IMG/VR virus record: IMGVR_UViG_3300029286_001043
Span: 1-28,227 of that record
From: a virus
Taxonomy: Duplodnaviria > Heunggongvirae > Uroviricota > Caudoviricetes
Direction: 5' to 3' (one strand)
DNA length: 28,227 nt
The notes under the pieces: generated by a model
What the model saw: the letters and a program-made list of their open reading frames with translations, nothing else
The model's database searches: none
Told to the model about the DNA's origin: nothing
Made by a program: the position numbers and the translations under genes
Shown here: one piece after another, positions 57-15,249 of the stretch
How positions within the stretch are numbered: position 1 is the stretch's first letter
How the letters are laid out: every line of letters begins with the position of its first letter

Positions 57-407
57 TTATGAACCTAATGGTATCCAATAAACAGACTTTGTTCCAATTG
101 CTCCTTCTATAATCGTATAAACATTACCATCGGCTGTCTTCATCTGACAGTCGTAATAGTACATACCGACTAAATCATTCATTTCAGAAGCTGGAATAGT
201 TAGTGTGTAAATACCCAATTCTGGGCTAGGAATACTTGTAATAGTTTTACTGATAACTGCATCACTATCCCCGTCACTCTTGTTCTTCTTTATAGTAAAG
301 AATAGAGTCCAACCGGTAATGTCAATTGCAACATTATCAGTATCCTCAAAAATAAACTGTTCACTGAATGTATCGCCCCTGTAAACTGTGAAATTGGTCT
401 CTTGCAT
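57..407 (-). CDS. BppU N-terminal-like (Ig-fold) phage structural protein
   Basis: Pattern FTVYRGDTF..F.F.D....IDITGWT..FTIK...G.YTLTIPASE...L.G.YYYD.Q is typical of BppU-like baseplate/fibre adaptor domains. A GAGGG RBS lies in the last codons of the upstream gene. Confidence 0.65.
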   Translation of the reverse strand: MQETNFTVYRGDTFSEQFIFEDTDNVAIDITGWTLFFTIKKNKSDGDSDAVISKTITSIPSPELGIYTLTIPASEMNDLVGMYYYDCQMKTADGNVYTIIEGAIGTKSVYWIPLGS

Positions 408-408
408 A

Positions 409-1575
409 TTATCCCTCTTTTTCTTTAGTACTTATTAATAATGATAGTTTTAAAACATCTTCCTGAATGGATGCTACCTCTTCAGTCAAATCAGCCAAAA
501 CATGAGATAGAGCATCGAACTTTCTATCCTGAATATCATTTAACTCTGTAGGTAGATACTCCAAAGCTAAATAATTCTCGGCTTTACAGATATTACAATA
601 CTTCTTGATAGGTTCGTAAAGACTTCCATTTACTAAGTAATGGGTAATAATACAAGAATGACAAGTCTTTGCTGCTGGGCAATTGCCATAACACTTCGTT
701 TGATCCTTATCAATCTGTAAGAACATACCCCGTATTATAGGTTCCCCAGTAAGTAAATTACCCAACTTAAATATTCTATTGCTCGCGGCTCTATGGCAAG
801 GGTAAATCTCACCGTTAGGTAACACAGCGATGTAATCCCGACCTGCTCCACAAAAGGCTAAATCAGGTTCTATCTCGCCATTTAGGGTCTTTAAACACTT
901 GTCTACAAAGGCAATATTAATCAGCCGACCTCTCTTTAAAAGAAATCTGCGATAGTTGTAAACTAACTTCAATTGATTGGCATATGTATTTACAGAAGCA
1001 TCGTCCCAATCTGCTTCCATAACTGCATGATGCATTATGTTCCTTACTCCTAATGATATTATAAATTTAATGTTCTCATATAGCCTAGCCACAGATTTAG
1101 GAGTATAGGTCATACGTATATTCGTATCAGGAAATAACTTAAGGATACCTATAGTATTCTGGATTATCACATCAAAGTTACTACCTAATCTATACTGAAG
1201 TGTTGTATCTCTATCTCCATCTATACTTACCTGCATACGAAAACCTAATTCTTTATATCTTTTAAACATCTCCTCATCAAAATAGGTACCGTTAGTAGAG
1301 ATGTAAAATTTAACTTTATCTGCCCATAATATTTTAGCATACTCAGCTAGTTCTAATACTAATTGAGGGTACAATAAAGGCTCACCGCCAAAGAATGTCA
1401 AAGAGAAGCCTTCCGGATTGATCTCATGTAGTTTATCTAGTATCAATTTGCCGTCGGCAGAGGTCAATGTCATTGGCGATTGCTTGTGAAAACAATACAA
1501 ACATTTAAGATTGCATTCTTCAGTGATAAAAATATCAGCGCTGTTTAACGAATAATCCTCAACTAGTAAATTCAT
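409..1575 (-). CDS. Radical SAM/SPASM domain protein (third of three), with canonical core motifs and a C-terminal coiled coil
   Basis: CNLKCLYC (CxxxCxxC), FGGEPLL, STNGT, VSIDG; SPASM Cys motifs FCGAG..IAVLPNGEIYPCH and CYGNC-x5-CHSC...CNIC. Confidence 0.93.
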   Translation of the reverse strand: MNLLVEDYSLNSADIFITEECNLKCLYCFHKQSPMTLTSADGKLILDKLHEINPEGFSLTFFGGEPLLYPQLVLELAEYAKILWADKVKFYISTNGTYFDEEMFKRYKELGFRMQVSIDGDRDTTLQYRLGSNFDVIIQNTIGILKLFPDTNIRMTYTPKSVARLYENIKFIISLGVRNIMHHAVMEADWDDASVNTYANQLKLVYNYRRFLLKRGRLINIAFVDKCLKTLNGEIEPDLAFCGAGRDYIAVLPNGEIYPCHRAASNRIFKLGNLLTGEPIIRGMFLQIDKDQTKCYGNCPAAKTCHSCIITHYLVNGSLYEPIKKYCNICKAENYLALEYLPTELNDIQDRKFDALSHVLADLTEEVASIQEDVLKLSLLISTKEKEG

Positions 1576-2584
1576 AGCTCTCCTTATATTTGTTGAACAT
1601 TCTTATTAATCCCTTATTCATACTACAAAAACCGGGGTATGGTTTGAAGTAACCACCAGTCTTTCGATAATTACCAGCTAAACATTTTGTATTTGGGCAA
1701 ATGTATCTAATATTACATCCTTTACAATACTTAAACATATACTCGTCTTTATTTGACTGTACCTGTTTCATTAAATCTAATTTATTCCAATCTATTCCTT
1801 TATAAATATCACCTAATTGATTATCTTTATTTGTATACCAACCATCACATTGCCAGATGCCGCCTTCTGGATCTATTGCTAATCGCTCTAATCCACATCC
1901 ACAAAACTTCCTTGTTTCATATGGACTACCACAACCACCGTTCCAAAAGGAACTCTGTAATACCTTGTAATCTAATCTAAACTCCTTTATTATCTCTAAA
2001 TATCCGGTAATGTATTTCTCTATCTCTTCAGGAGTAAAATCATAATGCTGTTTGTAGTAACAATTTATATTAATGAATCCTAAATTAGCCAGATATCTGT
2101 AATCCTCTACCATATTATCGTAGTTTGTTACTAGGAAATTTATGCTTCCTTGCTTCTCTAAAAATAACTTCTTGGTGAATGGTTGTGCTTCGACTTTATT
2201 ACATATGCTTCCGTACTTCTCATATGCATCCCCCATCGACCAAACTAAACGATAGTTGTTATTCTTAATCAAGTAGTTATATACATCTTCAGTTATCAAA
2301 GAACCATTTGTGTTCGAATGAAACATCACCTGTGGGTACTTTTCAATGGCATACTTAGTAACATCAAAATTTAAGAATGGCTCACCGCCCCACAAGAATA
2401 TGTAAAAATTAGGTGTTACTTTTAAATTACTATAGATGAACTTAATTGAATCTATAATAACTTCTTTAGACATACTCTGTTTGTTCCTGGAACCTTTACT
2501 GTAGCAGAAAGAACAATCTGAGTTACAATCATTAGTCAGGACTAAATAAACTGACTTGTACCTAGTTTGGCTTTGAGTATCCAT
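1559..2584 (-). CDS. Radical SAM/SPASM domain protein (second of three)
   Basis: CNSDCSFC, WGGEPFLN, NTNGSL; SPASM motifs FCGCG..LAIDPEGGIWQC and CKGC-x5-C-x4-C...C. Overlaps its neighbours by 17 and 23 nt. Confidence 0.92.
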   Translation of the reverse strand: MDTQSQTRYKSVYLVLTNDCNSDCSFCYSKGSRNKQSMSKEVIIDSIKFIYSNLKVTPNFYIFLWGGEPFLNFDVTKYAIEKYPQVMFHSNTNGSLITEDVYNYLIKNNNYRLVWSMGDAYEKYGSICNKVEAQPFTKKLFLEKQGSINFLVTNYDNMVEDYRYLANLGFININCYYKQHYDFTPEEIEKYITGYLEIIKEFRLDYKVLQSSFWNGGCGSPYETRKFCGCGLERLAIDPEGGIWQCDGWYTNKDNQLGDIYKGIDWNKLDLMKQVQSNKDEYMFKYCKGCNIRYICPNTKCLAGNYRKTGGYFKPYPGFCSMNKGLIRMFNKYKESYEFTS

Positions 2585-3659
2585 ACTTGTCCAATATATA
2601 CGTATAAGTGGCTGATTCTATTGCTCTTAAGTTACACACTTCTGGAGTCGGTTTAAACAAATTATGGTTAAATCTGTAATTCTCACCTAAACAAAGGGCA
2701 TTAGTACATAACTCTTTATTTCCTAAAGGACAATCTGTGCAATACTTAGTAAGTTCGGTATTCCAGTTCGGGATGTCTTTGAATATTCTATCCTTATCAA
2801 TATCGGTATAAATCGTTCCAATCTTAAACTCCGGGTAAACTATAAAGTAATCACATGGAAAGATATTACCTTCCCAATCAACCGCTAGATAATGAAACCC
2901 AGAACCACAAAACAACCCTAATGGAACTGTGGGCAATCCTTGTCGTTTCCTTGCTATGTTACTTCTAAAGGCAGTATCTAACGTACTAGTAACATGCTTA
3001 TAGGAATATACAATATCGACTATCTTCTGAAATAATTTGATGTACTCGTCCTTATGCTCCATGGCATATTTGCTCTGTTTGGGAGCATTGAACCTTAGAT
3101 TCCTTATTCCAGTCTTGCATAGATATTCAACATCTTTAAGTGTACTTTCATCTATAGTCTCAACAACATAATGTACATCACCTTTAGTATGCTTAACTAA
3201 ATCGAGTATTGGCTGTACCGTTTCTGCCAACTTATCTCCATACCTAGTTTTCAAAGAACCCATACTAAAACTTACAACTAAATTGTTCTTGTGCTTAAAA
3301 CACCACTCTCTAATTTCAGGGTTCTCAAGAAGTATCAATCCGTTAGTCACTAACATAAATCTGTGCATTGAATACTTCTCTACTGCATACTTAACTGCTT
3401 CAAAGTTTAAGAGTGGTTCTCCTCCAAACAATACAAATAGTAGTTTCTGATCCTTAATCTTTTTAGACATAAAAACAATTGTATCGTCTAAAACCTTAGT
3501 TGACATCATTGTGTCTTTTCTGAAACCTTCTGGCTGATAACAATAAGAACAACTCAAATTGCAACCTTGTGAAAGTATCAAATTAACATTCACAAAATCA
3601 CGATGTAGATTATCCGATGTCAAATCTTGTAACTCTAAGGCCATGTGTACGGGTTGCAT
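2562..3659 (-). CDS. Radical SAM/SPASM domain protein (first of three); alternative start ATG at 3644
   Basis: CNLSCSYC, FGGEPLLN, VTNGL; SPASM motifs FCGSG..LAVDWEGNIFPC and CTDC-x7-C-x4-C...C. The start overlaps the end of the Cys-rich gene. Confidence 0.92.
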   Translation of the reverse strand: MQPVHMALELQDLTSDNLHRDFVNVNLILSQGCNLSCSYCYQPEGFRKDTMMSTKVLDDTIVFMSKKIKDQKLLFVLFGGEPLLNFEAVKYAVEKYSMHRFMLVTNGLILLENPEIREWCFKHKNNLVVSFSMGSLKTRYGDKLAETVQPILDLVKHTKGDVHYVVETIDESTLKDVEYLCKTGIRNLRFNAPKQSKYAMEHKDEYIKLFQKIVDIVYSYKHVTSTLDTAFRSNIARKRQGLPTVPLGLFCGSGFHYLAVDWEGNIFPCDYFIVYPEFKIGTIYTDIDKDRIFKDIPNWNTELTKYCTDCPLGNKELCTNALCLGENYRFNHNLFKPTPEVCNLRAIESATYTYILDKYGYSKPN

Positions 3660-4432
3660 TTACAGTTCCATGCTGAATGGTCATGGGCTCCTTGATACTC
3701 ACAAGTTCCCCAATTGGAACCTGGAGGTGTATAATTACACATATTCCATGGTACAGTATTGTCTCCAGGTGTTATCGTACCACCGAAAGAACAATCATTA
3801 CAACCACTTGGATAATTACACGTTCCAGTATAGACCTTATAAGGATAAGTTGTTGCTGAACTTAAGTTAATACTTGCGCATCGATAAGCATGAACAAAAT
3901 AATTACAACCACATCCTTGGTCGTCGTCACAAGCAACACTAGGTGTGTAGTATGTAAAATCAAAACCACAGTCCTGGCAATACTGACATTGTTCTGCTTC
4001 ACAAATACAAGAAGCCATCAAGGCCTGTAACGTGGATCTTAATTCGGATATATGAGAACCTTTTTGTTTAGTGTCATGTTCAGTAATTGTAGGGTCTGTC
4101 CAACTAATCGCTGCTGTACTATCTTGAGGACAATAGTAGGAATCTGCCGCACAATCTCCTTCTTTAATACCATCATCTATGGCCGCTCTTAGTTCATCTA
4201 TATGTATCTTCCTAATTTTAGTTGAACGAGCAGTAATTGTCGAATCTGTGAATGTTACGTTTGTAATACCACGCCGTGTCAATTCCGCGTTTACCGCCGT
4301 CCTTAACTCATCTATATGAACTTTCCTATGTTTAGTACCATGGGCAGTTAATGTTGGGTCAGTAAAGGCTATAGTGTTAGCAGCACATTGCTTCGGCGCG
4401 TTAGTATGTGGATTTCCGTATGTTTTAGCCAT
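3635..4432 (-). CDS. Cys-rich protein with three N-terminal [FW]TDxTxT..TK....HIxELR repeats; candidate rSAM substrate and/or distal tail-associated protein
   Basis: Clean 265-aa ORF with AGGAG RBS. 19 Cys in total, 16 of them in residues 142-265. Repeats at aa 23-44, 61-82 and 111-132. The function is inferred from context. Confidence 0.8.
   Translation of the reverse strand: MAKTYGNPHTNAPKQCAANTIAFTDPTLTAHGTKHRKVHIDELRTAVNAELTRRGITNVTFTDSTITARSTKIRKIHIDELRAAIDDGIKEGDCAADSYYCPQDSTAAISWTDPTITEHDTKQKGSHISELRSTLQALMASCICEAEQCQYCQDCGFDFTYYTPSVACDDDQGCGCNYFVHAYRCASINLSSATTYPYKVYTGTCNYPSGCNDCSFGGTITPGDNTVPWNMCNYTPPGSNWGTCEYQGAHDHSAWNCKCNPYTWP
4037..4366 (-). repeat. Three protein-level repeats: FTDPTLTAHGTKHRKVHIDELR / FTDSTITARSTKIRKIHIDELR / WTDPTITEHDTKQKGSHISELR
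   Basis: Aligned by eye from the translation: 4301-4366, 4187-4252 and 4037-4102. Confidence 0.9.
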
Positions 4433-4446
4433 TCTATTCTCCTATA

Positions 4447-5286
4447 TTAAGCACCGTATGTAACATCATCCCAGCTAGCTGTTGTACCATTTGATACCAA
4501 AGCATACCCGGATTTACCTGATTGTGCAGGAAGTAATCCAGTTAAGGTTACACCGCTAGTAACAAAACTACGTACATCTTTAATACTTGAAGCTGTTATT
4601 GTTGTTTGACCTACAGTTAAAGTAATTTCTGCTAATGTAACTAACCCACCATAACTAGGAGGAGTAGTTGCATTTAAAGTAGCAATTACTGCACCAGCAG
4701 CATTAACTTGTATAGCATAAACATTTGTTCCGGCCACAGGCGCGGCCATTAACGGTGTTAATTGATCTACAATATCATAATTTGCAGTTCCATAGTTAAC
4801 TCTACCCGCTCTTACCCTACAATACATACTTGCTGCAACTGTAGGTTCTACTTTTAAAAATAAATCCATTATTTGAGGATTTGATCTTAAAGTATAAACA
4901 AATCCTTGAAGTGTAGATCCAGAATAAGAACACACACCAACAATTAAATCATTAGCTTGAAGACTTCCTGCCGCTATACCTAATATTTCCATGTAATCAA
5001 CCGCCGCACTTCCAGTATATGTCCAGCGTAATACAACATACGTTAAAGTAGAACTTACAGTAACAGTAGCTGCAGTAGTTGTCCTAATTCTTTCCTGATG
5101 AGTTCCATCTGTTATTTCACAAGATAATGCAGATAAACTTACACTTACATCAGATACTTTAGTTAGATAACCACCAGAATAAATCCCGGTTTTTCTAACA
5201 TCTTTTCCTATTCTATTTACTATCGAAGAATCTACTGGGTCGAAGTAAGCTACTGTACGTTCCTGAACACCTATATCATTAGGCAT
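4447..5286 (-). CDS. Short tail-fibre anchor/proximal fibre protein
   Basis: Follows the baseplate wedge genes. Has GIYSGG... and LAEITLTVGQTTITASSIKDVRSF motifs typical of fibre baseplate-binding domains, and ends in a fibre-type LPAQSGKSGYALVSNGTTASW motif. No recognisable receptor-binding domain. Confidence 0.6.
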   Translation of the reverse strand: MPNDIGVQERTVAYFDPVDSSIVNRIGKDVRKTGIYSGGYLTKVSDVSVSLSALSCEITDGTHQERIRTTTAATVTVSSTLTYVVLRWTYTGSAAVDYMEILGIAAGSLQANDLIVGVCSYSGSTLQGFVYTLRSNPQIMDLFLKVEPTVAASMYCRVRAGRVNYGTANYDIVDQLTPLMAAPVAGTNVYAIQVNAAGAVIATLNATTPPSYGGLVTLAEITLTVGQTTITASSIKDVRSFVTSGVTLTGLLPAQSGKSGYALVSNGTTASWDDVTYGA

Positions 5287-5306: not shown

Positions 5307-6584
5307 TTATACATAAATTGTAAAAACTACTCTCAATGCGATTCCGGCTACTTTCGCTATACTCGGAAAAGTTGCTTCAGCTACCATTGTTGTTCCATCA
5401 TTTAAAAATAAACCTAATTCAGTAATACCAGCTTGAACCACAGTGGTATCAATATTTAATGTAAATTCTATTCGATCAGAATAAACAGTATATGTAACAC
5501 CACTACCTGATATTACTGGGGTTTCAAGTTGAATATCTGCCTCATTAGGAAGAGTATTAATTCGTCCGGTTCCTAATTGGTATTTAGTAATCCCATCCAA
5601 AAATGAAGTCTTAGTATAGTCAAAAAATGCGTGAGTAGGCTGAATTACCGCATTAGAATCAAAATATAAATCACTACTATCATCAAAGTATTTTCGAGTA
5701 AACTCCCAATCCCTATTTACACAAGCATTTACATTGCCCAGGCTGGTATAAACTTCGCCGCTTTCAGTAGTAATTGGATTTAAAAACATAGAATAATTAA
5801 CTACTACATTTACAGGACGAACCGACTCAACATATTCAGTTAAATCAGTCTTCATTCCGGCTATAAATAGATAATCATCAGAGGCGTCGCCGAATGACTT
5901 ATTAAGAACTATCTCTACACCGATATGTGGAGACTTATAATAAGAAGCAGACAACCCAACTGGATTTTCATTTTCATGTCCAGTAAACCATTCTTCTTGA
6001 GTAAAAGTAGCATAATCCGAAGTATACATATCCCAAATATTCAAATTAAATCCTAATACATACGCAATATGACTAAGAGAAGTATAAGTACCTTTCTCCT
6101 TATACCAATCTATAACTTGAATTAATTGTCTTCTCTTTTCATCTATAGTAGCAGTATCTGCTCTAATTATCTGATACCCGACCAGATCAGCTAGGTATTG
6201 AATATAATCCGTCCCAACATTATATTTATCTAATAACTTTTCTATATCATTTATATTTCCGATCCACGTCCCGGTTAAAATACCACATTCTTCTAAAAAC
6301 TCTTGAAGAACAGTGGAATCTCGGAACTTAAGTGGTACCAATTCCATTAAATCTACATATTTTGCATAGTTTTCACCCTCACTAAATACTGATGTGATAG
6401 TCAAATCTAAAACTTCAGCAGCAATATATTTTTCTTGAGCTAAAGTTATAGTAGCCGTACTAACAATCTGAATATTTCCTTCAGAATCAAAATTCAAATC
6501 GATAACATCGTCGAAATTTATCCCAGTACTTATGCCTTTACCTAATTCATCAAAATAAAGTTTATCAAATCTAAAAGTTGACAT
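5307..6584 (-). CDS. Baseplate wedge protein, P2 gpI / T4 gp7-like
   Basis: YIQYLADLVGY...KRRQLIQVIDWYKEKGTY.SL motif (Tail_P2_I-like), VRPVNVVV motif, and position after the baseplate J-like gene. Confidence 0.75.
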   Translation of the reverse strand: MSTFRFDKLYFDELGKGISTGINFDDVIDLNFDSEGNIQIVSTATITLAQEKYIAAEVLDLTITSVFSEGENYAKYVDLMELVPLKFRDSTVLQEFLEECGILTGTWIGNINDIEKLLDKYNVGTDYIQYLADLVGYQIIRADTATIDEKRRQLIQVIDWYKEKGTYTSLSHIAYVLGFNLNIWDMYTSDYATFTQEEWFTGHENENPVGLSASYYKSPHIGVEIVLNKSFGDASDDYLFIAGMKTDLTEYVESVRPVNVVVNYSMFLNPITTESGEVYTSLGNVNACVNRDWEFTRKYFDDSSDLYFDSNAVIQPTHAFFDYTKTSFLDGITKYQLGTGRINTLPNEADIQLETPVISGSGVTYTVYSDRIEFTLNIDTTVVQAGITELGLFLNDGTTMVAEATFPSIAKVAGIALRVVFTIYV

Positions 6585-6585
6585 C

Positions 6586-7083
6586 TTATTGTAGTTTTAT
6601 CCTCATTTGAACTACCATCGAATCCCCAGATAAAATTGTCCTAGTCATAGCTAAATCTACAAATGCAATCAATTTACCTGAATTATCAGAAGTCGTTGCC
6701 AAATAGGCGGTAGTTACTGGACCTATATTTCCAGCGACCGCCGTAAATGTCAACTCTTTACTGACTATTCGATAATCTGTCGCATCTAATTCTTTAGTCG
6801 GAAATCCAACAGTCGACCGCTCTAATGTTTGAGCTGAATACCCATTTCCACTCATTTCATTCTGTATCGTAATCAGAGTATCCGTTTCGACTAATGTATC
6901 ATTGCAAAGACGAACATAGAATCCGGCGGGAGTATACGCTGCCTCGCCTCTGAAAAAACTCTCCAAAATAGATTCTTCCCCTTGATCAACGAGTGAATTT
7001 TTTTTGTCCATACCCCAAATTTCTTTACCGTCTCTAATATGTCTTATTGTCCACCACGAATCATAAAATTTGTGTCTGCCCAT
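6586..7083 (-). CDS. Putative baseplate wedge structural protein
   Basis: NSLVDQGEESIL...YVRL...E..GNGYSAQ...G.L.AFVDL pattern; lies between the gp6-like and gp7-like genes. Confidence 0.55.
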   Translation of the reverse strand: MGRHKFYDSWWTIRHIRDGKEIWGMDKKNSLVDQGEESILESFFRGEAAYTPAGFYVRLCNDTLVETDTLITIQNEMSGNGYSAQTLERSTVGFPTKELDATDYRIVSKELTFTAVAGNIGPVTTAYLATTSDNSGKLIAFVDLAMTRTILSGDSMVVQMRIKLQ

Positions 7084-7097
7084 TAAATCCTCCTTAA

Positions 7098-8786
7098 CTA
7101 TGCTACATACCCTATTAGTGTAACATCAACCTCTAATAATTTAGCAATCTGATCTTGATTCAAAACTATATCACCATCTTCATTTTGTTTATACCTTACA
7201 TAAATTTCGTCACTAGGCCCTAAAGCCGGAGAAATATCTAATGATACTTCGCCATTTACATAATTAATTGTACCATTGGTAATAGTATAAGTAGAATCTA
7301 TATCTACAAACGCCCCTGCTCCATCATCAGTTGCTACAATCTCGTCATTAACATAGAGATTTACTGATCCTTCTAATATCGGAAGTACGGATAAATTCTC
7401 TCCCCAATCGTGCAACGAATTGTGGGTAGCATCGAGATCTTTTCTGATCTGAAATTCTGAATGACTATAAGATACCCCACTTACACTTTCAATAGTAGAT
7501 ACTAAATCTCCAATCCTCTTATCTGTCCCTAATTTAGTCGTAGTCCCTAATACAAATTCGTCGGCAATCGCAGTTTCAACAGCCGATTGCATATCAGATA
7601 ACGTTCGTCCTTTAATAACCTTCAAATCTAGAGTAGGTACAACATCAATTACTTCAGGATCAACATAAGAATATCGTACCGTCATTAATGATTTAGTATA
7701 TAAATATTCAGATAAATCAGCTTCAAAGGTGGCAGAAGGTAATTCCCAATTCTGAAGTATTACACATAATTTAACTTGGTTATACATATCATAATTAGGA
7801 GGAGTCTCTTCCGCTTCCCCCCAAACATTTGAATCTGCGACGCCAGCATAATTGTTTATTATCGAAACAAAATCAGCTTTAGTTACAGCTCTATCTCCAG
7901 TAGCAAAAACGCTTGGAGCTTCAGCCCTAATTTCCTCCAACGATTCTGCATCATCTCCGCCTAAGAATACGGTAGTATTAGTAACTGTACAAGCTTTAGA
8001 AGTTCCTAACGTATCATAAATAGCATCATTAAGAGTAGTAACTCGAGCTAATTCATAAACATTTCCGCTTAGTCCTTCAGATTTAACATATTTAATCTCA
8101 ATAACATCTCCTAAATCTGGAGCTTTACCGAAGACGTCATTGCCAAATAGAATTGTAACATTATCATCTAATTCGGGTCTTAGAACATAATGAAGCGAAG
8201 TTGTAGTAGAATCGATAAAAGAAGTTACTTTAGTCCATTCAACACCATTTACTGATACTGTCAAATTAGTATTTTCTATGGAGTCATCATCAATTAGATA
8301 TTCCTGATCAGTATTTCCAGTTGAAGTATAATCTAAAGTTATTAACTCGCCCTGTAACGCCTCTGCATCGACATACGTCTGCCCAACCATAATTGCTACA
8401 TCATCAGCCACTAAATATTTAATTCCACTGCTCGTTTGACATTCAGTATATTTAGGAATAAAAACAATTTGAGTATGTGCTCCGCCAGTTAAAGTAAATC
8501 TAAGAGTACCAGTAGCAGACACTTTTCGTTTTGGAATATAATTCAATAACCTAACTAAGTTAATAATACTAGATTTGTTCTTAGCTGTCATTATGTATGA
8601 TTCTTCGGCTCTTCTTTCAACATAATACAATACTAAGTTTGCAACTGCCGCAAACAATTCGATCAGCATAGACCCAGTTGAAGAACGATAAGTATCTTTC
8701 CACGCCCCACGCTCTTTAAGCCTATTGGTAAGCTGTGTTACCAGATCATCAAAATCATAATCTACAAAAGAAAGCTGATTGCTCAT
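7098..8786 (-). CDS. Baseplate wedge subunit, T4 gp6 / baseplate J-like
   Basis: DYDFDDL..QL...S.GSMLIELFAAV...TAKNKSSI, FGNDVFGKAP, GGDDAESLEEIR...RAVTKADF. Confidence 0.93.
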   Translation of the reverse strand: MSNQLSFVDYDFDDLVTQLTNRLKERGAWKDTYRSSTGSMLIELFAAVANLVLYYVERRAEESYIMTAKNKSSIINLVRLLNYIPKRKVSATGTLRFTLTGGAHTQIVFIPKYTECQTSSGIKYLVADDVAIMVGQTYVDAEALQGELITLDYTSTGNTDQEYLIDDDSIENTNLTVSVNGVEWTKVTSFIDSTTTSLHYVLRPELDDNVTILFGNDVFGKAPDLGDVIEIKYVKSEGLSGNVYELARVTTLNDAIYDTLGTSKACTVTNTTVFLGGDDAESLEEIRAEAPSVFATGDRAVTKADFVSIINNYAGVADSNVWGEAEETPPNYDMYNQVKLCVILQNWELPSATFEADLSEYLYTKSLMTVRYSYVDPEVIDVVPTLDLKVIKGRTLSDMQSAVETAIADEFVLGTTTKLGTDKRIGDLVSTIESVSGVSYSHSEFQIRKDLDATHNSLHDWGENLSVLPILEGSVNLYVNDEIVATDDGAGAFVDIDSTYTITNGTINYVNGEVSLDISPALGPSDEIYVRYKQNEDGDIVLNQDQIAKLLEVDVTLIGYVA

Positions 8787-8794
8787 ATTACCCC

Positions 8795-9184
8795 CTAAGA
8801 ATTCGTTACTACTGTATGATTAAAGGTCTCATAATATCCTCTAATCCGAAACGTTAAATTTACATATACTGTACTATAATCCGGATCGGACTTAAATTCA
8901 ACTGCATCTATTAAAACACGATCATCCCAGGCTTCAATAGAAGCCTTAACCGAATCAGAAAGTCTATTTAATAGCCTATCGTTAATTGGCTCAAATAAAA
9001 GATTGCGAAGCCCTAAAGCAAATGTGGGTAAAAATATACGTTCACCTGGACTAGTTCTCAATATATTATCGATAGAACCTTTTACTGCTTCAACATTCTC
9101 ATCTAACTTCAGTTTCCCCTGAGTATCAGTAACCAATTGAGGATTTAAATCCGACCATACAACTAATTTTTGTTTAACAGCCAT
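8795..9184 (-). CDS. Baseplate wedge subunit, T4 gp25 / GPW-gp25 family
   Basis: AVKGSIDNILRTSPGERIFLPTF..GL..LLFEP...IEAWDDRV. Confidence 0.93.
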   Translation of the reverse strand: MAVKQKLVVWSDLNPQLVTDTQGKLKLDENVEAVKGSIDNILRTSPGERIFLPTFALGLRNLLFEPINDRLLNRLSDSVKASIEAWDDRVLIDAVEFKSDPDYSTVYVNLTFRIRGYYETFNHTVVTNS

Positions 9185-9194
9185 ATTAACTCCT

Positions 9195-10334
9195 TTACCA
9201 TTCTATTAGAACAAACCCACCTGTTCCTGCCCCACCTATGTATGAACCAGTATTACCTTCACTAGAACCACTACCGCCACCACCATATCCAACCCCTGGA
9301 TTTCCATTACCCGCTGCACTAGTTCCAGCACCACCTGTACCAAAATTCGACCCTCCACCTGCCCCACTATAGTTGCCATTAGCATCAGCAGTAGCTCCAT
9401 TCCCACCACCAAATCCAGTTCCGGGTAAAGAAGGTATGCCTGCAAGTCCATCCTTACTTCCCGAGTACCTATCGCCTCCTAATCCACCTGCTTCACCATA
9501 TTCTTTAGAAATTGCAGTTCCACCACGACCACCACCAGTTACACTATCCCCATTAAAAGTAGTGTTTCCTCCAGCTGTGGGATTTTGAACTGACCATCTA
9601 CCACCCTGTCCTCCAGCTCCAACTACATAAGCATAGTTATTACCTGGAGTAGTAGTTAAAGGAATCATTACTTTAGCACCACCTCCACCACCGCCACCAC
9701 CACCGTTGGTATCTGCTCCGCCTGCTCCTCCACCACCACCCGCTTGAATAGTATAAAGAATCTGTGTAACCCCTGTAGGGCAAAGCCAATTTCCAGTTCC
9801 TGAAGTATATAACTGTTTACCACTTGAATTTATACCTGAATATCCTGAAGTACCGATTCCAGAATAACCACTTCGCCCAGAATAACCTGAAACCCCAATT
9901 TGTCCACTATACCCAGAATACCCAGCTGGAGTGGTATAAATTAATTTAGTACCATTATAAGAAACAACTTTTCCATTACCAATATCAGTTTCATCTATTT
10001 CTTTCGTTCCTACTATCGACAGATCAGCAGTAGAAACTCCTGCACTGTAAAATATTCCACATTTACTCCCAGTTAAATGTTCTACTGCTGTAGTACTTTC
10101 TTTAGCTCTTGCTATTGTATAAACATTAGGGGCAGAATAACTCACCTCTACGAATTCTTTATTTGGATCATTGGCTGGATTAGCATAAATAACGCTATCC
10201 CAAATTAATACTATAAAGGTACCTGCCGAAGTAGGAAAATTATGTCCAGCAGTTAAAGTCATTGATAAAGCAACATCGGTAACTGTTGAAGCTAAATATG
10301 CATATCCAAAATTTACTCTTAAATATTTACTCAT
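9195..10334 (-). CDS. Gly-rich tail fibre/minor tail protein with a short Gly-X-Y (GYS) repeat
   Basis: N-terminal structural domain (..ARAKESTTAVEH..), GYSGYSGQIGVSGYSGRSGYSG repeat, and a C-terminal Gly-rich domain (SGTGNW.CP.GVT...QAGGGGGAGG...GGAGTGGFVLIEW). Confidence 0.75.
   Translation of the reverse strand: MSKYLRVNFGYAYLASTVTDVALSMTLTAGHNFPTSAGTFIVLIWDSVIYANPANDPNKEFVEVSYSAPNVYTIARAKESTTAVEHLTGSKCGIFYSAGVSTADLSIVGTKEIDETDIGNGKVVSYNGTKLIYTTPAGYSGYSGQIGVSGYSGRSGYSGIGTSGYSGINSSGKQLYTSGTGNWLCPTGVTQILYTIQAGGGGGAGGADTNGGGGGGGGGAKVMIPLTTTPGNNYAYVVGAGGQGGRWSVQNPTAGGNTTFNGDSVTGGGRGGTAISKEYGEAGGLGGDRYSGSKDGLAGIPSLPGTGFGGGNGATADANGNYSGAGGGSNFGTGGAGTSAAGNGNPGVGYGGGGSGSSEGNTGSYIGGAGTGGFVLIEW
9834..9926 (-). 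repeat. Collagen-like Gly-X-Y repeat (GYS/SGYSG)
   Basis: Translation GYSGYSGQIGVSGYSGRSGYSGIGTSGYSG; coordinates are approximate. Confidence 0.75.
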
Positions 10335-12695: not shown

Positions 12696-13540
12696 TATTT
12701 TTCCTTTTGAAATCCTAAATTATTATAAACCTTACCTAATTTTTGCTTGGTTAATACTTCATATGATTGCAAATTAACAGTTACTTCAGCAGCAACTGGG
12801 CCCTTTTCTGTCATTTTGGAATCAAATTTAACGGTTACATCATTTATTACTACCATATCTAAATAAAATCCACCATTGAATAAATCTATACTGATAATAT
12901 CGCCACTGCGTCCAAAGGATTGAGCAGCCTGATCGCTATTACCGAATACTTTACCTAATCCTTTATCTGCTCCTTTAGCAATATACATCTCATTCGGACC
13001 TGGCGGAATTAAAAATCCAGGAACAGGGCCATTGTAAAGTTTACCTAAATTTAATTCCATTTCGGCTGGCAAACACATCGATTGCAGTGCTTGACAGGCT
13101 TGAAGCACCTCTTTATCCGCATTATCATATGTACGAAATTTAAGTTTTAAAGTTGCCTGCAATGGATCAGAACCTGTCCATTTTCTTCTAGTCATTGCTA
13201 CATTATGTAAAGTTGCGCCGGTAGCTGCCTTCACACCAGAATTTATTATCCCTTCTCCGACTTTTGCTAGTTCATTAAGTCCCGGAATACTTATCAGCGA
13301 ATCCCAATGAGAACCGACTTTAAATTCAAAATCATCTTGAAGCCAGGCGTTAACCCGCCAGTGAGTATTCTCTATTACTACTCGGTATTTTTGATCTACA
13401 TATTGAAAAGCTGTCTCATTAAACCCGACAACCTTTCTACCATTTTGTGTTGGAGAGGTAAAACTTTTCTTAAAACTTATTCCAGTTAATGTTTCCGCAA
13501 TATCTTTAGTTTCGCCTTTTACCGTATCTATGAATGACAT
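12695..13540 (-). CDS. Baseplate-tail tube junction protein (gp48-like)
   Basis: Follows the tape measure gene; W.GSDPLQ.TL.LKF and FL.PP motifs of tube-fold proteins. Confidence 0.6.
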   Translation of the reverse strand: MSFIDTVKGETKDIAETLTGISFKKSFTSPTQNGRKVVGFNETAFQYVDQKYRVVIENTHWRVNAWLQDDFEFKVGSHWDSLISIPGLNELAKVGEGIINSGVKAATGATLHNVAMTRRKWTGSDPLQATLKLKFRTYDNADKEVLQACQALQSMCLPAEMELNLGKLYNGPVPGFLIPPGPNEMYIAKGADKGLGKVFGNSDQAAQSFGRSGDIISIDLFNGGFYLDMVVINDVTVKFDSKMTEKGPVAAEVTVNLQSYEVLTKQKLGKVYNNLGFQKEK

Positions 13541-13542
13541 AA

Positions 13543-15249
13543 TTACTCCACGTCTAGAGTTCCCATGCTCAAGGATTCGATCATAGGATCTCCGATAGTA
13601 GTAGCTTGAAAATTGCCAGATGAAGTTCCATTGCCTGTTTTTGCTGATTGTCCCAATTTACCAGTTAATCGGTCGATTGCCTCGGTTAATTTATTACTAC
13701 CTTCAATATTTAAAGATGATAATTCCTCAGCTGATTTCCGAACATGAATAACATCTAAATTCTCAGGTCTAATAGGATTTAAAATTTCATCATCAGGTTT
13801 AGTTTTTGCTTTCTCTAATGTTCCAGTTACCGCTCTGGTTGCATTTTGCAATCCCTGAGCAATTCTCTTTCCGCCAATTAATCCACCAGATAACCCAACA
13901 CCTGCGCCTACCGCTGCACCAATAGGACCGCCGACCATAAATCCAATTGCTGCCCCTTTAATCGTTCCCCAAAGCGCGTTCTTTGCTACATCCCCAACTG
14001 AAACACCCTTTTCGCCAACACCTGGTCCTGTACCGCCTAAAACTCCTCCTACTCCAGCAGCAATCTTTTGCCCACCGTGTAATTCCTCACCAGGTTTACC
14101 TAACCATCCTTTATCTTTAGCTGTTTTTTGAGCTTTAAAAGCGTCCCATACTCCCATTCCTAATCCGGCAATTCCGGCTAAAATAGGAGCGGCATTAGCC
14201 AGCATCGGACCTAATTTAGTTAATAACCCGCCAATACCTCCAGCTAATAATGATGAACCAATACCGGCTGAAGCGGTAGTACCAACTTGCTCTTTACCCT
14301 TTGTACCGGCAATCTTATTCAAAACATCCATCAAATCTTTTGTCCACTTCGTTCTATACGCGTCGTTTTGAAAGAAAGAAAACAAAGCATTACCAAGTCC
14401 GACAGAAGTAGTCTTTACCATTCCGCCTTGATCTTTACTGATTTGAGGTAAAGCCTTTTGAGATCGTGCCAGTCCTTCAGTAATCGTCCGACTCTTTTCA
14501 GCAACAGTTTCAGGAATCGGGTCTTTGCCTCCTGCAAATAATCTATCATGTGTTTTTCTTAACGATTCACTAGATTGTTCACTCTCAAGAGATAAATCAG
14601 AAGCCGCTGCCATATTTCCGACTGTAATTTTCTTTTGCCTCTGTTTCCGATATAAATCAAAAGCTTTAGTAGCTATTCCACCTAACGGACCTAACATAGC
14701 GCCGGCTACTCCTGCTCCAATACCTCCCAATCCCTTCATAGTTTCAGCCATTAACGGATGCTGCTTCTGAAATTGTTCCTGTTTAGTTCGGCCGACTGTC
14801 CTAGTTTTAGCCATCATCAATTCGGCAGATTTACCTAGTCGATCTAAACTTATTCCTGTCTTGCTCTCGGCTTCCTCAATCCTCTTCTGCATTGCAAATG
14901 AAAGCTTCTCTATTCCTTGTCCACGAAAGAATTTTATATTCTCGTCCAATTCATTAGTCAAATTAAATAGAGAATCAACTTCTTTTGCCGACGGCGTAGT
15001 CTTAGCATCTAATAATTTGTCAATCTGACTAACAATATCTTCAACCAAAGCAATACTCTTACCAGCCTTCTCTTGTTCAGCAGTCATCCTCTGACCTTGA
15101 TAAAGCGAAGATAATTTATCAAAGAATGAATGAAAGTCAGTATATTTAATTTGCATTTGTCGGAAAAGTTTTACCGACTTCTCATTGAATATAGAGAAAC
15201 CTTCTTTAGCAAATTGTTCTGACCATCCGAATGTTTTATTGTCCGACAT
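13543..15249 (-). CDS. Tape measure protein
   Basis: 568 aa, helical Lys/Ala-rich, with Gly/Ala hydrophobic stretches (GAAIGFMVGGPIGAAVGAGVG); lies directly after the chaperone pair. Confidence 0.8.
   Translation of the reverse strand: MSDNKTFGWSEQFAKEGFSIFNEKSVKLFRQMQIKYTDFHSFFDKLSSLYQGQRMTAEQEKAGKSIALVEDIVSQIDKLLDAKTTPSAKEVDSLFNLTNELDENIKFFRGQGIEKLSFAMQKRIEEAESKTGISLDRLGKSAELMMAKTRTVGRTKQEQFQKQHPLMAETMKGLGGIGAGVAGAMLGPLGGIATKAFDLYRKQRQKKITVGNMAAASDLSLESEQSSESLRKTHDRLFAGGKDPIPETVAEKSRTITEGLARSQKALPQISKDQGGMVKTTSVGLGNALFSFFQNDAYRTKWTKDLMDVLNKIAGTKGKEQVGTTASAGIGSSLLAGGIGGLLTKLGPMLANAAPILAGIAGLGMGVWDAFKAQKTAKDKGWLGKPGEELHGGQKIAAGVGGVLGGTGPGVGEKGVSVGDVAKNALWGTIKGAAIGFMVGGPIGAAVGAGVGLSGGLIGGKRIAQGLQNATRAVTGTLEKAKTKPDDEILNPIRPENLDVIHVRKSAEELSSLNIEGSNKLTEAIDRLTGKLGQSAKTGNGTSSGNFQATTIGDPMIESLSMGTLDVE

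What the first reader, a model, noticed from the sequence alone, without database searches (positions are those of the whole stretch)
409..4432. Candidate new system: three radical SAM/SPASM maturases coupled to a Cys-rich protein inside a phage tail module
Seen: a 265-aa gene with 16 Cys in its last 124 aa overlaps three consecutive, mutually overlapping rSAM/SPASM genes (CxxxCxxC, GGEP, two SPASM Cys clusters each). The cassette is flanked by structural genes, a fibre anchor upstream and a BppU-like gene downstream. Known: SPASM enzymes next to Cys-rich substrates install thioether (sacti/ranthi) or C-C crosslinks in RiPPs (AlbA, CteB, SCIFF-type). Inference: the phage post-translationally crosslinks or metallates a virion tail or receptor-binding protein. 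This could be an oxygen-independent substitute for disulfide stabilisation in an anaerobic host, or produce a RiPP-like effector. The substrate is much larger than typical RiPP precursors, and no peptidase or exporter is visible in the window. I know of no characterised system of this architecture.
Basis: partly seen in the sequence, partly recalled or inferred. Interest (0 to 1): 0.92.

Follow-up and report, generated by a model that had tools for sequence, protein, structure and literature searches.

The report
Radical-SAM-matured phage tail-fibre tip protein
An uncultivated T4-like lake phage encodes a small cysteine-packed protein that probably caps a tail fibre, followed by three dedicated radical-SAM enzymes that most likely cross-link it, a way of building a virus's host-contact part for which I found no published description.

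Summary
Four overlapping minus-strand genes encode a 265-aa protein (19 Cys, 16 in the last 124 aa) and three intact rSAM/SPASM enzymes.

All three enzymes score best against the thioether maturases PapB (NCBIfam) and CteB (PDB 5WGG), not anSME or cofactor enzymes. They form three orthologous classes in a fixed order, A-(B)-C.

In every related locus with readable downstream gene calls or DNA (window, 4 ENA/JGI, 34 IMG/VR, 2 divergent Cys tails), the Cys-rich gene is followed by these enzymes. Three contexts (two proteins) with the same N-terminal domain but no Cys tail have no rSAM.

New here: the three HIxELR repeats are not leaders. They fold into one pseudo-threefold domain. The gene directly upstream comes from at least four BLAST-unrelated families, yet in 41 of 42 loci it ends in [TVI]-Y-[AGS]-x-COOH. 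No other of 574 ORFs has that end. A 3:1 complex model puts one fibre tail on each repeat (ipSAE 0.82, best control 0.01).

Best reading: a monomeric tip protein caps a trimeric baseplate fibre, and the three enzymes weld its hypervariable Cys knob, probably with thioethers. The chemistry and virion location are inferred.

This scan found the same kind before on other DNA (e1-881897, e1-1056898, e1-3405323). I found no phage paper. The closest biochemistry is CrpC/CrpA and QhpD/QhpC.

The parts
4447..5286 (-). 279-aa baseplate-attached fibre stem protein. Its last ~25 residues carry a BppL_N-like G..GK..L...G...W motif and the C-terminal docking tail.
   Evidence: 172 homologues. Longer ones carry Collar, Gp10_C or BppL_N heads after the shared ~240-aa stem. 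The AF2 model has pLDDT 81.5. Its best fold hits are weak and are tail fibres or RBPs: cyanophage A-1(L) fibre 8KEC at E 5e-3, HFTV1 fibre, lactophage p2 RBP.
4450..4467 (-). C-terminal docking tail of the fibre protein (residues 274-279, ...VTYGA-COOH).
   Evidence: 41 of 42 loci have an upstream gene ending in Y-[AG]-x, across at least 4 BLAST-unrelated families. Among 611 distinct ORFs, all 37 with [TVI]-Y-[AGS]-x-COOH are this gene, and none of the other 574 has it. In the complex model, residues 259-261 and 273/274-279 of each copy form the interface.
3635..4432 (-). 265-aa tip protein: an N-terminal three-repeat adaptor domain plus a C-terminal Cys-rich knob.
   Evidence: About 48 full-length homologues at 40-59% identity. 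It matches no Pfam, NCBIfam or PHROG family and no GenBank phage.
4013..4375 (-). Adaptor domain (residues ~20-140): three T-D-P-T-I-T-A-x-x-T-K-x-R-K-x-H-I-D-E-L-R repeats forming a three-helix, pseudo-threefold fold.
   Evidence: AF2 gives pLDDT 72-89 for most of residues 21-140, falling to 49-65 across 91-110, with helices 37-53, 75-89 and 125-140. The same fold occurs in many bacterial and phage proteins with FN3, Ig, LamG or Cxxx-repeat partner domains. Interface residues in the complex model are 28-37/40, 66-75/78 and 116-125/128.
3638..4012 (-). Cys-rich knob (residues 141-265), the presumed rSAM substrate. The conserved frame is C-I-C-E-x-E-x-C-x-Y-C-x-D-C-G ... W-N-C-K-C-N-P-Y-T-W.
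   Evidence: Invariant in 49 homologues: C142, C144, E147, C149, C152, D154, C155, G156, C168, C176, C185, P197, W241, C257, C259, P261. The AF2 model has low confidence here and no fold match was found.
3758..3841 (-). Hypervariable, indel-rich loop of the knob (residues 198-225). In this phage it holds three extra Cys.
   Evidence: Mean top-residue frequency is 0.29-0.37 and 39-50% of cells are gaps, against 0.73-0.78 in the flanking frame.
2562..3659 (-). rSAM/SPASM maturase class A (365 aa).
   Evidence: PF04055 41.4 bits; TIGR04085 36.5 bits; best NCBIfam PapB NF047865 at 126.8 bits (cut-off 340); best PDB CteB 5WGG at 1.4e-22. Class A is present in every locus.
1559..2584 (-). rSAM/SPASM maturase class B (341 aa). 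It is the optional class and is closer to A than to C.
   Evidence: PF04055 37.7 bits; TIGR04085 34.2 bits; PapB 97.2 bits; CteB 9.2e-14. It is absent from L001 and L002 and present elsewhere.
409..1575 (-). rSAM/SPASM maturase class C (388 aa).
   Evidence: PF04055 64.2 bits; PF13186 21.9 bits; PapB 176.1 bits over model positions 2-330 of 330; CteB 1.6e-20. It is present wherever enough downstream DNA is held.
57..407 (-). 116-aa gene starting 1 nt after rSAM-C. It is a small Ig-like or BppU_N-like protein of unknown role.
   Evidence: phrog_1084 at 6.5e-24; phrog_3304 'L-shaped tail fiber protein assembly' at 1e-7; BppU_N below cut-off. A homologue follows the cassette in L001 only. Other clades have unrelated small genes there.
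5307..9184 (-). Baseplate context: P2-gpI-like (425 aa), Gp80-like (165 aa), baseplate J (562 aa) and gp25/W (129 aa).
   Evidence: Pfam hits. The same order occurs in L001.

Best explanation
The 265-aa protein is a monomeric tail-fibre tip protein. Its N-terminal domain is built from the three HIxELR repeats. It has internal threefold pseudo-symmetry and grips the three C-terminal tails (...T/V-Y-A/G-x-COOH) of the trimeric 279-aa baseplate fibre encoded just upstream, one tail per repeat. Its C-terminal 125 residues form a Cys-framed knob with a hypervariable loop, probably the host-contact surface. Before assembly, in the host cytoplasm, the three translationally coupled rSAM/SPASM enzymes (classes A, B, C) abstract hydrogen atoms and install covalent intramolecular cross-links. 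These are most likely Cys-S-to-carbon thioethers onto Asp, Glu, Asn or other acceptors. The links would lock the knob into a protease- and redox-resistant shape. Shown here: gene structure, enzyme family and intact motifs, strict co-occurrence, the conserved fibre tail motif, and a complex model that passes its controls. Inferred: virion location, that the knob is the substrate, the thioether chemistry, and the division of labour among the three enzymes.
For: (1) Enzymes. All three score best against PapB ranthipeptide maturase over the full model (176, 97 and 127 bits), then SCIFF, nif11, CXXX and QhpD. anSME scores 57 bits or less. The best solved relative is CteB 5WGG for all three. CxxxCxxC and 7 SPASM Cys are invariant at 31-51% identity.

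(2) Linkage. There are three orthologous classes in the fixed order A-(B)-C. In IMG/VR, 34 of 34 loci with downstream DNA have class A, and 21 of 21 with at least 3.2 kb have A-B-C. The same holds in L001-L004. Two homologues with quite different Cys tails, P0058 and P0054, also have rSAMs. The same N-domain without a Cys tail has none in 3 contexts.

(3) Virion role. The cassette sits after baseplate or fibre genes in at least three different phage backgrounds. The upstream gene always ends in the Y-A/G-x tail and no other ORF does. Even the non-rSAM homologue P0072 follows a 1453-aa fibre-like protein ending in ...NAVYN. The 3:1 complex scored ipSAE 0.82 against a best control of 0.01. In calibration, that mark was reached by 51 of 78 solved complexes and 2 of 108 mismatches. 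The three runs share at least 96% of contacts and the partner's pLDDT is 81. One tail lies on each repeat. No solved structure resembles the domain, so the pass is unlikely to come from memory.

(4) The knob has a conserved Cys, Glu and Asp frame plus an indel-rich loop.

(5) Precedent. rSAM/SPASM thioethers occur on whole proteins: CrpC on 29-kDa CrpA, and QhpD on QhpC (PMC13692751).
Against: There is no experimental datum: no mass spectrometry and no virion proteomics. The AF2 model of the knob has low confidence (pLDDT about 40-72), so no cross-link geometry can be read. None of the enzymes reaches the PapB equivalog cut-off, so the linkage type is not predictable. They have no RRE, so how they recognise the substrate is unknown. 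The C149-x2-C152-x2-C155 motif could bind metal. The adaptor domain also occurs at the C-terminus of secreted bacterial proteins, so it is not exclusively a phage fibre adaptor. The complex test was calibrated on pairs of single chains, not on 3:1 assemblies. The fibre protein's trimeric state is assumed by analogy.
Confidence: 0.65

Rival explanations
1. Same substrate and same virion role, but the enzymes install other radical chemistry, alone or alongside thioethers. Candidates are aromatic C-C or C-O cyclophane links on the many Tyr and Trp residues, epimerisation, or Cys-to-formylglycine conversion.
For: The knob has 12 Tyr, 4 Trp and 10 Asn besides 16 Cys, and W241 and W255 are invariant or nearly so. 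Three anciently diverged enzyme classes suggest more than one reaction type. All scores are below the PapB equivalog cut-off.
Against: The best matches for all three are thioether formers (PapB, SCIFF/CteB, QhpD). Cyclophane (YhhB 45.7 bits), dynobactin (54.4 bits) and anSME (57 bits) models score far lower. The feature that tracks with the enzymes across divergent tails is cysteine density.
Confidence: 0.15
2. The Cys-rich domain is a metal-binding (Fe-S or Zn) module, for example an electron donor or scaffold for the rSAMs, which then act on some other target such as another fibre protein.
For: An invariant CxxCxxC lies within C-x-C-x4-C-x2-C-x2-C. The fold is low-confidence and unmatched. 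Nothing here excludes metal binding.
Against: Relatives keep the rSAMs while the Cys pattern changes completely (P0058, P0054). That is typical of substrates, not cofactor sites. The loop is hypervariable and indel-rich. No other conserved candidate substrate travels with the enzymes across the different phage backgrounds.
Confidence: 0.1
3. The product is a released RiPP-like protein toxin or effector, for example one liberated at lysis, and not a virion part.
For: The gene layout of a Cys-rich C-terminal 'core' followed by rSAM/SPASM genes is that of RiPP clusters. Virion presence is not shown.
Against: No peptidase or exporter lies in the window or in related loci. The N-terminal part is a folded domain, not a leader. 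The upstream fibre tail motif is specific and conserved, and the docking model passes. The cassette always sits in a tail-fibre module.
Confidence: 0.07

Closest known systems
PapB/PapA (freyrasin) and CteB/SCIFF ranthipeptide and sactipeptide systems
   Same: These are rSAM/SPASM enzymes with three [4Fe-4S] sites encoded next to a Cys-rich substrate. They are the best HMM and PDB matches for all three phage enzymes.
   Different: The substrate here is a 265-aa two-domain structural protein, not a short leader-plus-core peptide. There is no RRE, peptidase or exporter. Three paralogous enzymes serve one substrate. The scores are below the equivalog cut-offs. The setting is a phage tail-fibre module.
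CrpC/CrpA of Methanococcus voltae (PMC13692751, 2026) and QhpD/QhpC of quinohemoprotein amine dehydrogenase
   Same: A SPASM rSAM installs thioether (ranthionine) links in a whole protein rather than a peptide. CrpA's N-terminal domain also contributes to enzyme binding. QhpD is among the hits (79, 66 and 57 bits).
   Different: CrpC and QhpD have an RRE and act alone. CrpA has regular 17-residue repeats and its function is unknown. QhpC is an enzyme subunit. Neither is viral or part of a particle.
gp38-type adhesins of T2/T6/S16-like Straboviridae (PMC3157838, PMC12032242)
   Same: It is a small monomeric protein with an N-terminal attachment module and a C-terminal receptor-binding module. 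That module has conserved frame segments and hypervariable loops and sits on the tip of a trimeric fibre in a T4-like phage.
   Different: No sequence or fold similarity was found. gp38's frame is made of glycine-rich motifs and needs no modifying enzymes. Here the frame is cysteine-based with three rSAMs, and attachment is modelled through a three-repeat pseudo-threefold domain.
CXXX-repeat rSAM target/maturase systems (TIGR04114/TIGR04115; Pfam PF27846) in phages
   Same: An Atlas cluster of viral proteins combines the same adaptor fold with a Cxxx-repeat rSAM target domain. TIGR04115 is among the enzyme hits (100, 48 and 68 bits).
   Different: The tail here is not a CXXX repeat but a non-repetitive knob of about 125 residues with a fixed Cys, Glu and Asp frame.

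Membership tests
Radical SAM / SPASM subfamily | [quoted passage not shown] | tested here: met
   One motif occurs in each enzyme, at residues 33, 20 and 21. PF04055 scores 41.4, 37.7 and 64.2 bits against a cut-off of 29.5. The motif is invariant in orthologues.
Radical SAM / SPASM subfamily | C-terminal SPASM domain with 7-8 Cys for two auxiliary clusters | tested here: met
   Seven Cys are invariant in each class. TIGR04085 scores 36.5 (A) and 34.2 (B) against a cut-off of 27. PF13186 scores 21.9 (C) against 21.5.
PapB-family ranthipeptide maturase (NCBIfam NF047865, equivalog) | Score above the curated equivalog cut-off (340 bits) | tested here: not met
   The scores are 176.1 (C), 126.8 (A) and 97.2 (B) bits. 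PapB is the best family for all three with full-length alignment, but all fall far below the cut-off. They are relatives, not members.
RiPP (sacti-/ranthipeptide) biosynthetic cluster | Short precursor peptide with an unstructured leader and a core | tested here: not met
   The substrate has 265 aa. Its N-terminal 140 residues form a folded domain found in many unrelated proteins.
RiPP (sacti-/ranthipeptide) biosynthetic cluster | RRE (PqqD-like) domain fused to the enzyme or encoded separately | tested here: not met
   CxxxCxxC starts at residues 20-33, and the alignment to CteB begins after CteB's N-terminal ~100 residues. There is no PqqD hit in the window genes. The extra 126-aa gene seen in some clades has no Pfam or PHROG hit and is absent from this genome.
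RiPP (sacti-/ranthipeptide) biosynthetic cluster | Leader peptidase and/or exporter in the cluster | tested here: not met
   The window and loci L001-L004 hold only structural genes around the cassette.
Protein-substrate thioether rSAM systems (CrpC TIGR04463; QhpD TIGR03906) | Enzyme scores above the family cut-off | tested here: not met
   QhpD TIGR03906 scores 79.4, 65.7 and 57.3 bits against a cut-off of 453. TIGR04463 was not among the 25 families shown per protein, so that part is untested.
Protein-substrate thioether rSAM systems (CrpC TIGR04463; QhpD TIGR03906) | Thioether cross-links demonstrated in the protein product | not testable with these tools
   This needs co-expression and mass spectrometry.
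gp38-type tail-fibre tip adhesin | Sequence or fold homology to gp38 (glycine-rich-motif sandwich) | tested here: not met
   There is no Pfam or PHROG hit and no PDB fold match at E<=1e-3. The resemblance is functional only.
gp38-type tail-fibre tip adhesin | A monomer bound to the distal end of a trimeric fibre | tested here: inconclusive
   The 3:1 model passes with ipSAE 0.82 against a best control of 0.01. That mark was reached by 51 of 78 solved complexes and 2 of 108 mismatched pairs. The runs agree in at least 96% of contacts and the partner's pLDDT is 81. The tail motif is specific. These are a model and a correlation, not a measurement.

The most novel reading that the evidence does not exclude
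Phages have a previously undescribed class of enzymatically matured virion proteins. A monomeric receptor-binding knob is welded by up to three dedicated radical-SAM enzymes. It is mounted on a trimeric fibre through a pseudo-threefold three-repeat adaptor that captures the three C-terminal tails of the fibre. The adaptor would be a general plug-and-socket for swapping fibre tips, since Ig, FN3, Cxxx-repeat and Cys-knob heads all use it. The radical cross-linking would be a cytoplasmic, disulfide-independent way to harden the tip.
Probability: 0.55. Interest if true: 0.88.

Novelty: new variant of a known kind. Interest (0 to 1): 0.8.

Why it matters
Covalent stabilisation of phage particles is known from self-catalysed links such as the HK97 capsid isopeptides (my own knowledge). 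I found no report of dedicated radical enzymes tailoring a virion or receptor-binding protein.

If true, this extends RiPP-type radical chemistry to virus structural biology. It offers a family of compact, enzyme-stapled binding scaffolds with a natural hypervariable loop. It also identifies a modular socket (three-repeat domain) and plug (Y-A-x-COOH tail) that could explain how fibre tips are exchanged between phages.

It gives RiPP enzymologists a tractable system: three enzymes, one protein, no RRE. The cassette is widespread. There are about 48 full-length homologues of the tip protein, 39 IMG/VR loci, and 368 viral stretches encoding relatives of the class-C enzyme.

Tried and rejected
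- **GenBank phage search.** tblastn with the Cys-rich protein found no match. Hits for rSAM-C were only distant jumbo-phage and gut-phage rSAMs at 22-28% identity.
- **Family libraries.** Pfam, NCBIfam and PHROGs gave nothing for the Cys-rich protein or either half of it, even at E<=1.
- **Fold searches of the tip-protein model.** PDB gave nothing. AFDB clusters and the Atlas matched only the N-domain. The knob had no meaningful match, with TM 0.41 or less.
- **'Three repeats are three leaders for three enzymes'.** Rejected. The repeats form one domain that occurs widely without rSAMs. Loci with only two enzymes (L001, L002) keep three repeats.
- **The extra 126-aa gene as a discrete RRE.** In IMG/VR clades this gene lies between the substrate gene and rSAM-A. 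It has no Pfam or PHROG hit and no homologue in this genome. The question is unresolved.
- **Presence or absence of class B versus substrate features.** No obvious pattern appears in alignment A1.
- **Contig ends.** There is no terminal repeat, and the other end carries replication genes. What follows the 116-aa gene is therefore unknown.
- **Single-sequence scan of viral contigs with rSAM-C.** It found only one locus, so I repeated it with an alignment.
- **Sequencing runs.** No RNA holder is listed. The holders are lake-water or freshwater metagenomes that may be the source. This is not used as evidence on expression or host physiology.
- **Literature.** Four searches for phage plus rSAM plus fibre, virion or RiPP found no description of this system. 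One cyanophage paper merely lists an rSAM maturase as an 'antibiotic synthesis gene'.

Full report
**Observation.** The window is the tail and baseplate end of a 92-kb contig of an uncultivated T4-like myovirus. It carries sheath, gp15-like, T4 baseplate, hub OB-fold, gp25, baseplate J, Gp80-like and P2-gpI-like genes. At 409-4432 on the minus strand lie four overlapping genes. The first encodes a 265-aa protein with 19 Cys, 16 of them in the last 124 residues. It has three repeats ending in HIDELR, HIDELR and HISELR. The other three encode rSAM/SPASM enzymes of 365, 341 and 388 aa. Each has one CxxxCxxC, one GGEP and seven SPASM cysteines.

**What the enzymes are.** The best NCBIfam model for all three is the PapB ranthipeptide maturase, aligned over its full length (176, 127 and 97 bits). 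Next come the SCIFF maturase, nif11, CXXX-repeat, CcpM and QhpD. All are far below the equivalog cut-offs. anSME, mycofactocin, haem and MoaA-type models score much lower. The only strong solved relative is CteB (5WGG), and the alignment starts after CteB's N-terminal recognition domain. So these are peptide- or protein-cross-linking SPASM enzymes of unassigned specificity, and they lack an RRE.

BLAST between loci shows three orthologous classes in the fixed order A-(B)-C. A and B are closer to each other than to C. B is missing in two loci. The cluster-binding cysteines are invariant at 31-51% identity, so all three classes are under selection as active enzymes.

**Linkage to the Cys-rich protein.** The large protein database holds about 48 full-length homologues at 40-59% identity. 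About 35 further proteins share only the three-repeat part.

- Four long ENA/JGI contigs all have the Cys-rich gene directly followed by two or three rSAM genes.
- In IMG/VR, 39 loci encode a relative. All 34 with downstream DNA have class A next. All 21 with at least 3.2 kb downstream have A-B-C.
- Two divergent homologues with quite different Cys tails (P0058, P0054) are also followed by rSAMs.
- Proteins with the three-repeat domain but no Cys tail (P0072 in two contexts, P0057) have no rSAM nearby.

The enzymes therefore track the cysteine tail, not the repeats. This is the pattern expected of a substrate.

**The substrate's anatomy.** AF2 with 49 homologues models most of residues ~20-140 at moderate confidence (pLDDT 72-89, falling to 49-65 across residues 91-110). 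Each HIxELR motif forms a helix preceded by an extended segment, T-x-T-K-x-R-K. The same fold occurs in many uncharacterised bacterial and phage proteins, next to FN3, Ig, LamG, P-domain or Cxxx-repeat rSAM-target domains. It is a general module and not a leader peptide.

The C-terminal 125 residues are modelled poorly and match no known fold. Their alignment shows a rigid frame. C142, C144, E147, C149, C152, D154, C155, G156, C168, C176, C185, P197, W241, C257, C259 and P261 are invariant. This frame surrounds an indel-rich hypervariable loop at residues 198-225. A fixed scaffold with a variable loop is the usual layout of a receptor-binding tip.

**New evidence for a fibre-tip role.** I compared the genes immediately upstream of the Cys-rich gene. 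They belong to at least four families with no BLAST similarity to one another: 254-296 aa, 148 aa, 165-195 aa and 346-361 aa. Yet 41 of 42 end in Y-[AG]-x-COOH, usually ...N-A-[TV]-Y-A-x. The motif is preceded by a fibre-type G..GK..L...G...W/F motif.

Among 611 distinct ORFs of at least 100 aa in all loci and in the whole 92-kb genome, the 37 that end in [TVI]-Y-[AGS]-x are all this upstream gene. None of the other 574 has that end. Even the non-rSAM homologue P0072 follows a 1453-aa fibre-like protein ending in ...NAVYN.

The window's upstream protein (279 aa) has 172 homologues. The longer ones replace the short tail with Collar, Gp10_C or BppL_N-type heads. Its model (pLDDT 81.5) has only weak fold hits, and they are tail fibres and RBPs.

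I therefore tested a specific idea: three fibre tails dock on the three repeats. I folded three copies of residues 190-279 of the fibre protein with residues 1-140 of the tip protein.

- The score was ipSAE 0.82, against 0.01 for the best of three controls.
- In the tool's calibration that mark was reached by 51 of 78 solved complexes and 2 of 108 mismatched pairs. The calibration used single-chain pairs, so the counts hold only roughly here.
- The three runs share at least 96% of contacts, and the partner's pLDDT is 81.
- Residues 259-261 and 273/274-279 of each fibre copy touch residues 28-37/40, 66-75/78 and 116-125/128 of the tip protein. That is one tail per repeat.

No solved structure resembles the domain, so the pass is unlikely to be recall. 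This supports binding but does not prove it.

**Mechanism proposed.** The fibre protein trimerises on the baseplate. One tip protein caps it through the pseudo-threefold adaptor. Before or during assembly in the cytoplasm, classes A, B and C cross-link the knob. Thioethers from Cys to Asp, Glu, Asn or other carbons are the most likely links. The reasons are the enzymes' nearest relatives, the invariant acidic residues inside the Cys frame, and the fact that cysteine density is what co-varies with the enzymes. The chemistry, the order of action and the means of substrate recognition without an RRE are inferred or unknown. The rivals are other radical chemistry, a metal-binding domain, and a released effector. 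They are listed with their evidence.

**Comparison with what is known.** By mechanism this resembles ranthipeptide/SCIFF maturation. More closely, it resembles the two cases of rSAM thioethers on whole proteins. One is QhpD/QhpC. The other is CrpC/CrpA of Methanococcus voltae, published in September 2026 (PMC13692751). That paper does not mention phages.

It is not a member of the PapB, QhpD or classical RiPP families. The cut-offs are not met, there is no RRE, leader, peptidase or exporter, and the substrate is a two-domain protein.

By function the tip protein resembles gp38-type monomeric adhesins on T-even long fibres (PMC3157838, PMC12032242), without any homology. Four literature searches found no description of rSAM maturation of a phage fibre or virion protein.

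**Earlier scan findings.** Earlier agents of this scan reached the same general reading on other DNA: e1-881897, e1-1056898, e1-3405323 and others. These are unchecked AI notes, not independent evidence. I re-tested the shared claims here: co-occurrence, and the repeats forming one domain. I added the fibre-tail motif and the 3:1 docking model.

**Breadth.** Of those, 31 carry a strongly Cys-rich non-rSAM ORF on the same strand, some with 80-96 Cys. The window's cassette is thus one well-defined family within a larger, apparently unstudied set of phage rSAM-plus-Cys-rich-protein modules.

**Verdict.** The 'three repeats as leaders' idea and the anaerobe speculation are not supported or not testable. 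This is a new variant of a known kind of system (rSAM/SPASM maturation) in a new biological role. Interest is high, but the finding rests on inference until the mass spectrometry and binding experiments are done.

Noticed in passing
L028:7721-8101, L035:7724-8104, L016:~7725-8120: In the IMG/VR clades an extra ~126-131-aa gene sits between the Cys-rich gene and rSAM-A. It has no Pfam or PHROG hit and no homologue in this phage's genome. It could be a discrete recognition or chaperone protein.
   Followed up: partly
P0015 (421 aa): One homologue fuses a ~180-aa Cys- and Tyr-rich N-terminal domain, with no Pfam hit, in front of the complete adaptor-plus-knob protein.
   Followed up: partly
P0058 (151 aa) and P0054 (226 aa): These have the same three-repeat adaptor with quite different Cys tails. 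P0058 ends in a run of C-x-C units. Both are still followed by rSAM genes (three after P0058; two, plus an unassigned 226-aa gene, after P0054).
   Followed up: partly
L072:4035-5933, L087:1723-5550, L118:584-4898, L124:4749-5846: Distant viral relatives of rSAM-C lie next to extremely Cys-rich proteins, for example 632 aa with 96 Cys and 276 aa with 81 Cys. These are other substrate types of the same general phenomenon.
   Followed up: no
L099-L123 (IMG/VR sample 3300045988 clade): This is a clade of about 15 loci, each with two rSAM genes related to class C. None has an ORF reaching 8 Cys per 40 aa on the same strand, so their substrate may not be Cys-rich.
   Followed up: no
L005:7579-8663, L006:3628-8663: In a Rep3-plasmid-like or mobile-element context, a signal-peptide protein with the adaptor domain at its C-terminus (P0072) follows a 1453-aa fibre-like protein ending in ...NAVYN. 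The plug-and-socket pairing therefore seems to exist outside rSAM cassettes, and perhaps outside tailed phages.
   Followed up: partly
window 57-407 (-): A 116-aa gene starts 1 nt after rSAM-C. It matches phrog_1084 strongly and 'L-shaped tail fiber protein assembly' phrog_3304 weakly. It is conserved only in the L001 lineage. Other clades have unrelated ~97-125-aa genes in that position.
   Followed up: partly
L028:11821-12384: In one clade the cassette is followed by a 187-aa Lcl_C (C-type-lectin-like) domain protein (PF07603, 3e-32) and then by small, apparently hydrophobic (membrane-like) proteins. This would place the cassette at the very end of the tail module.
   Followed up: no
window 9195-10334 (-); window 9001-10000 and 13001-15000: A 379-aa baseplate-region protein carries a Gly_rich_2 domain. 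These stretches have raised GC (0.40-0.43 against about 0.35 elsewhere).
   Followed up: no
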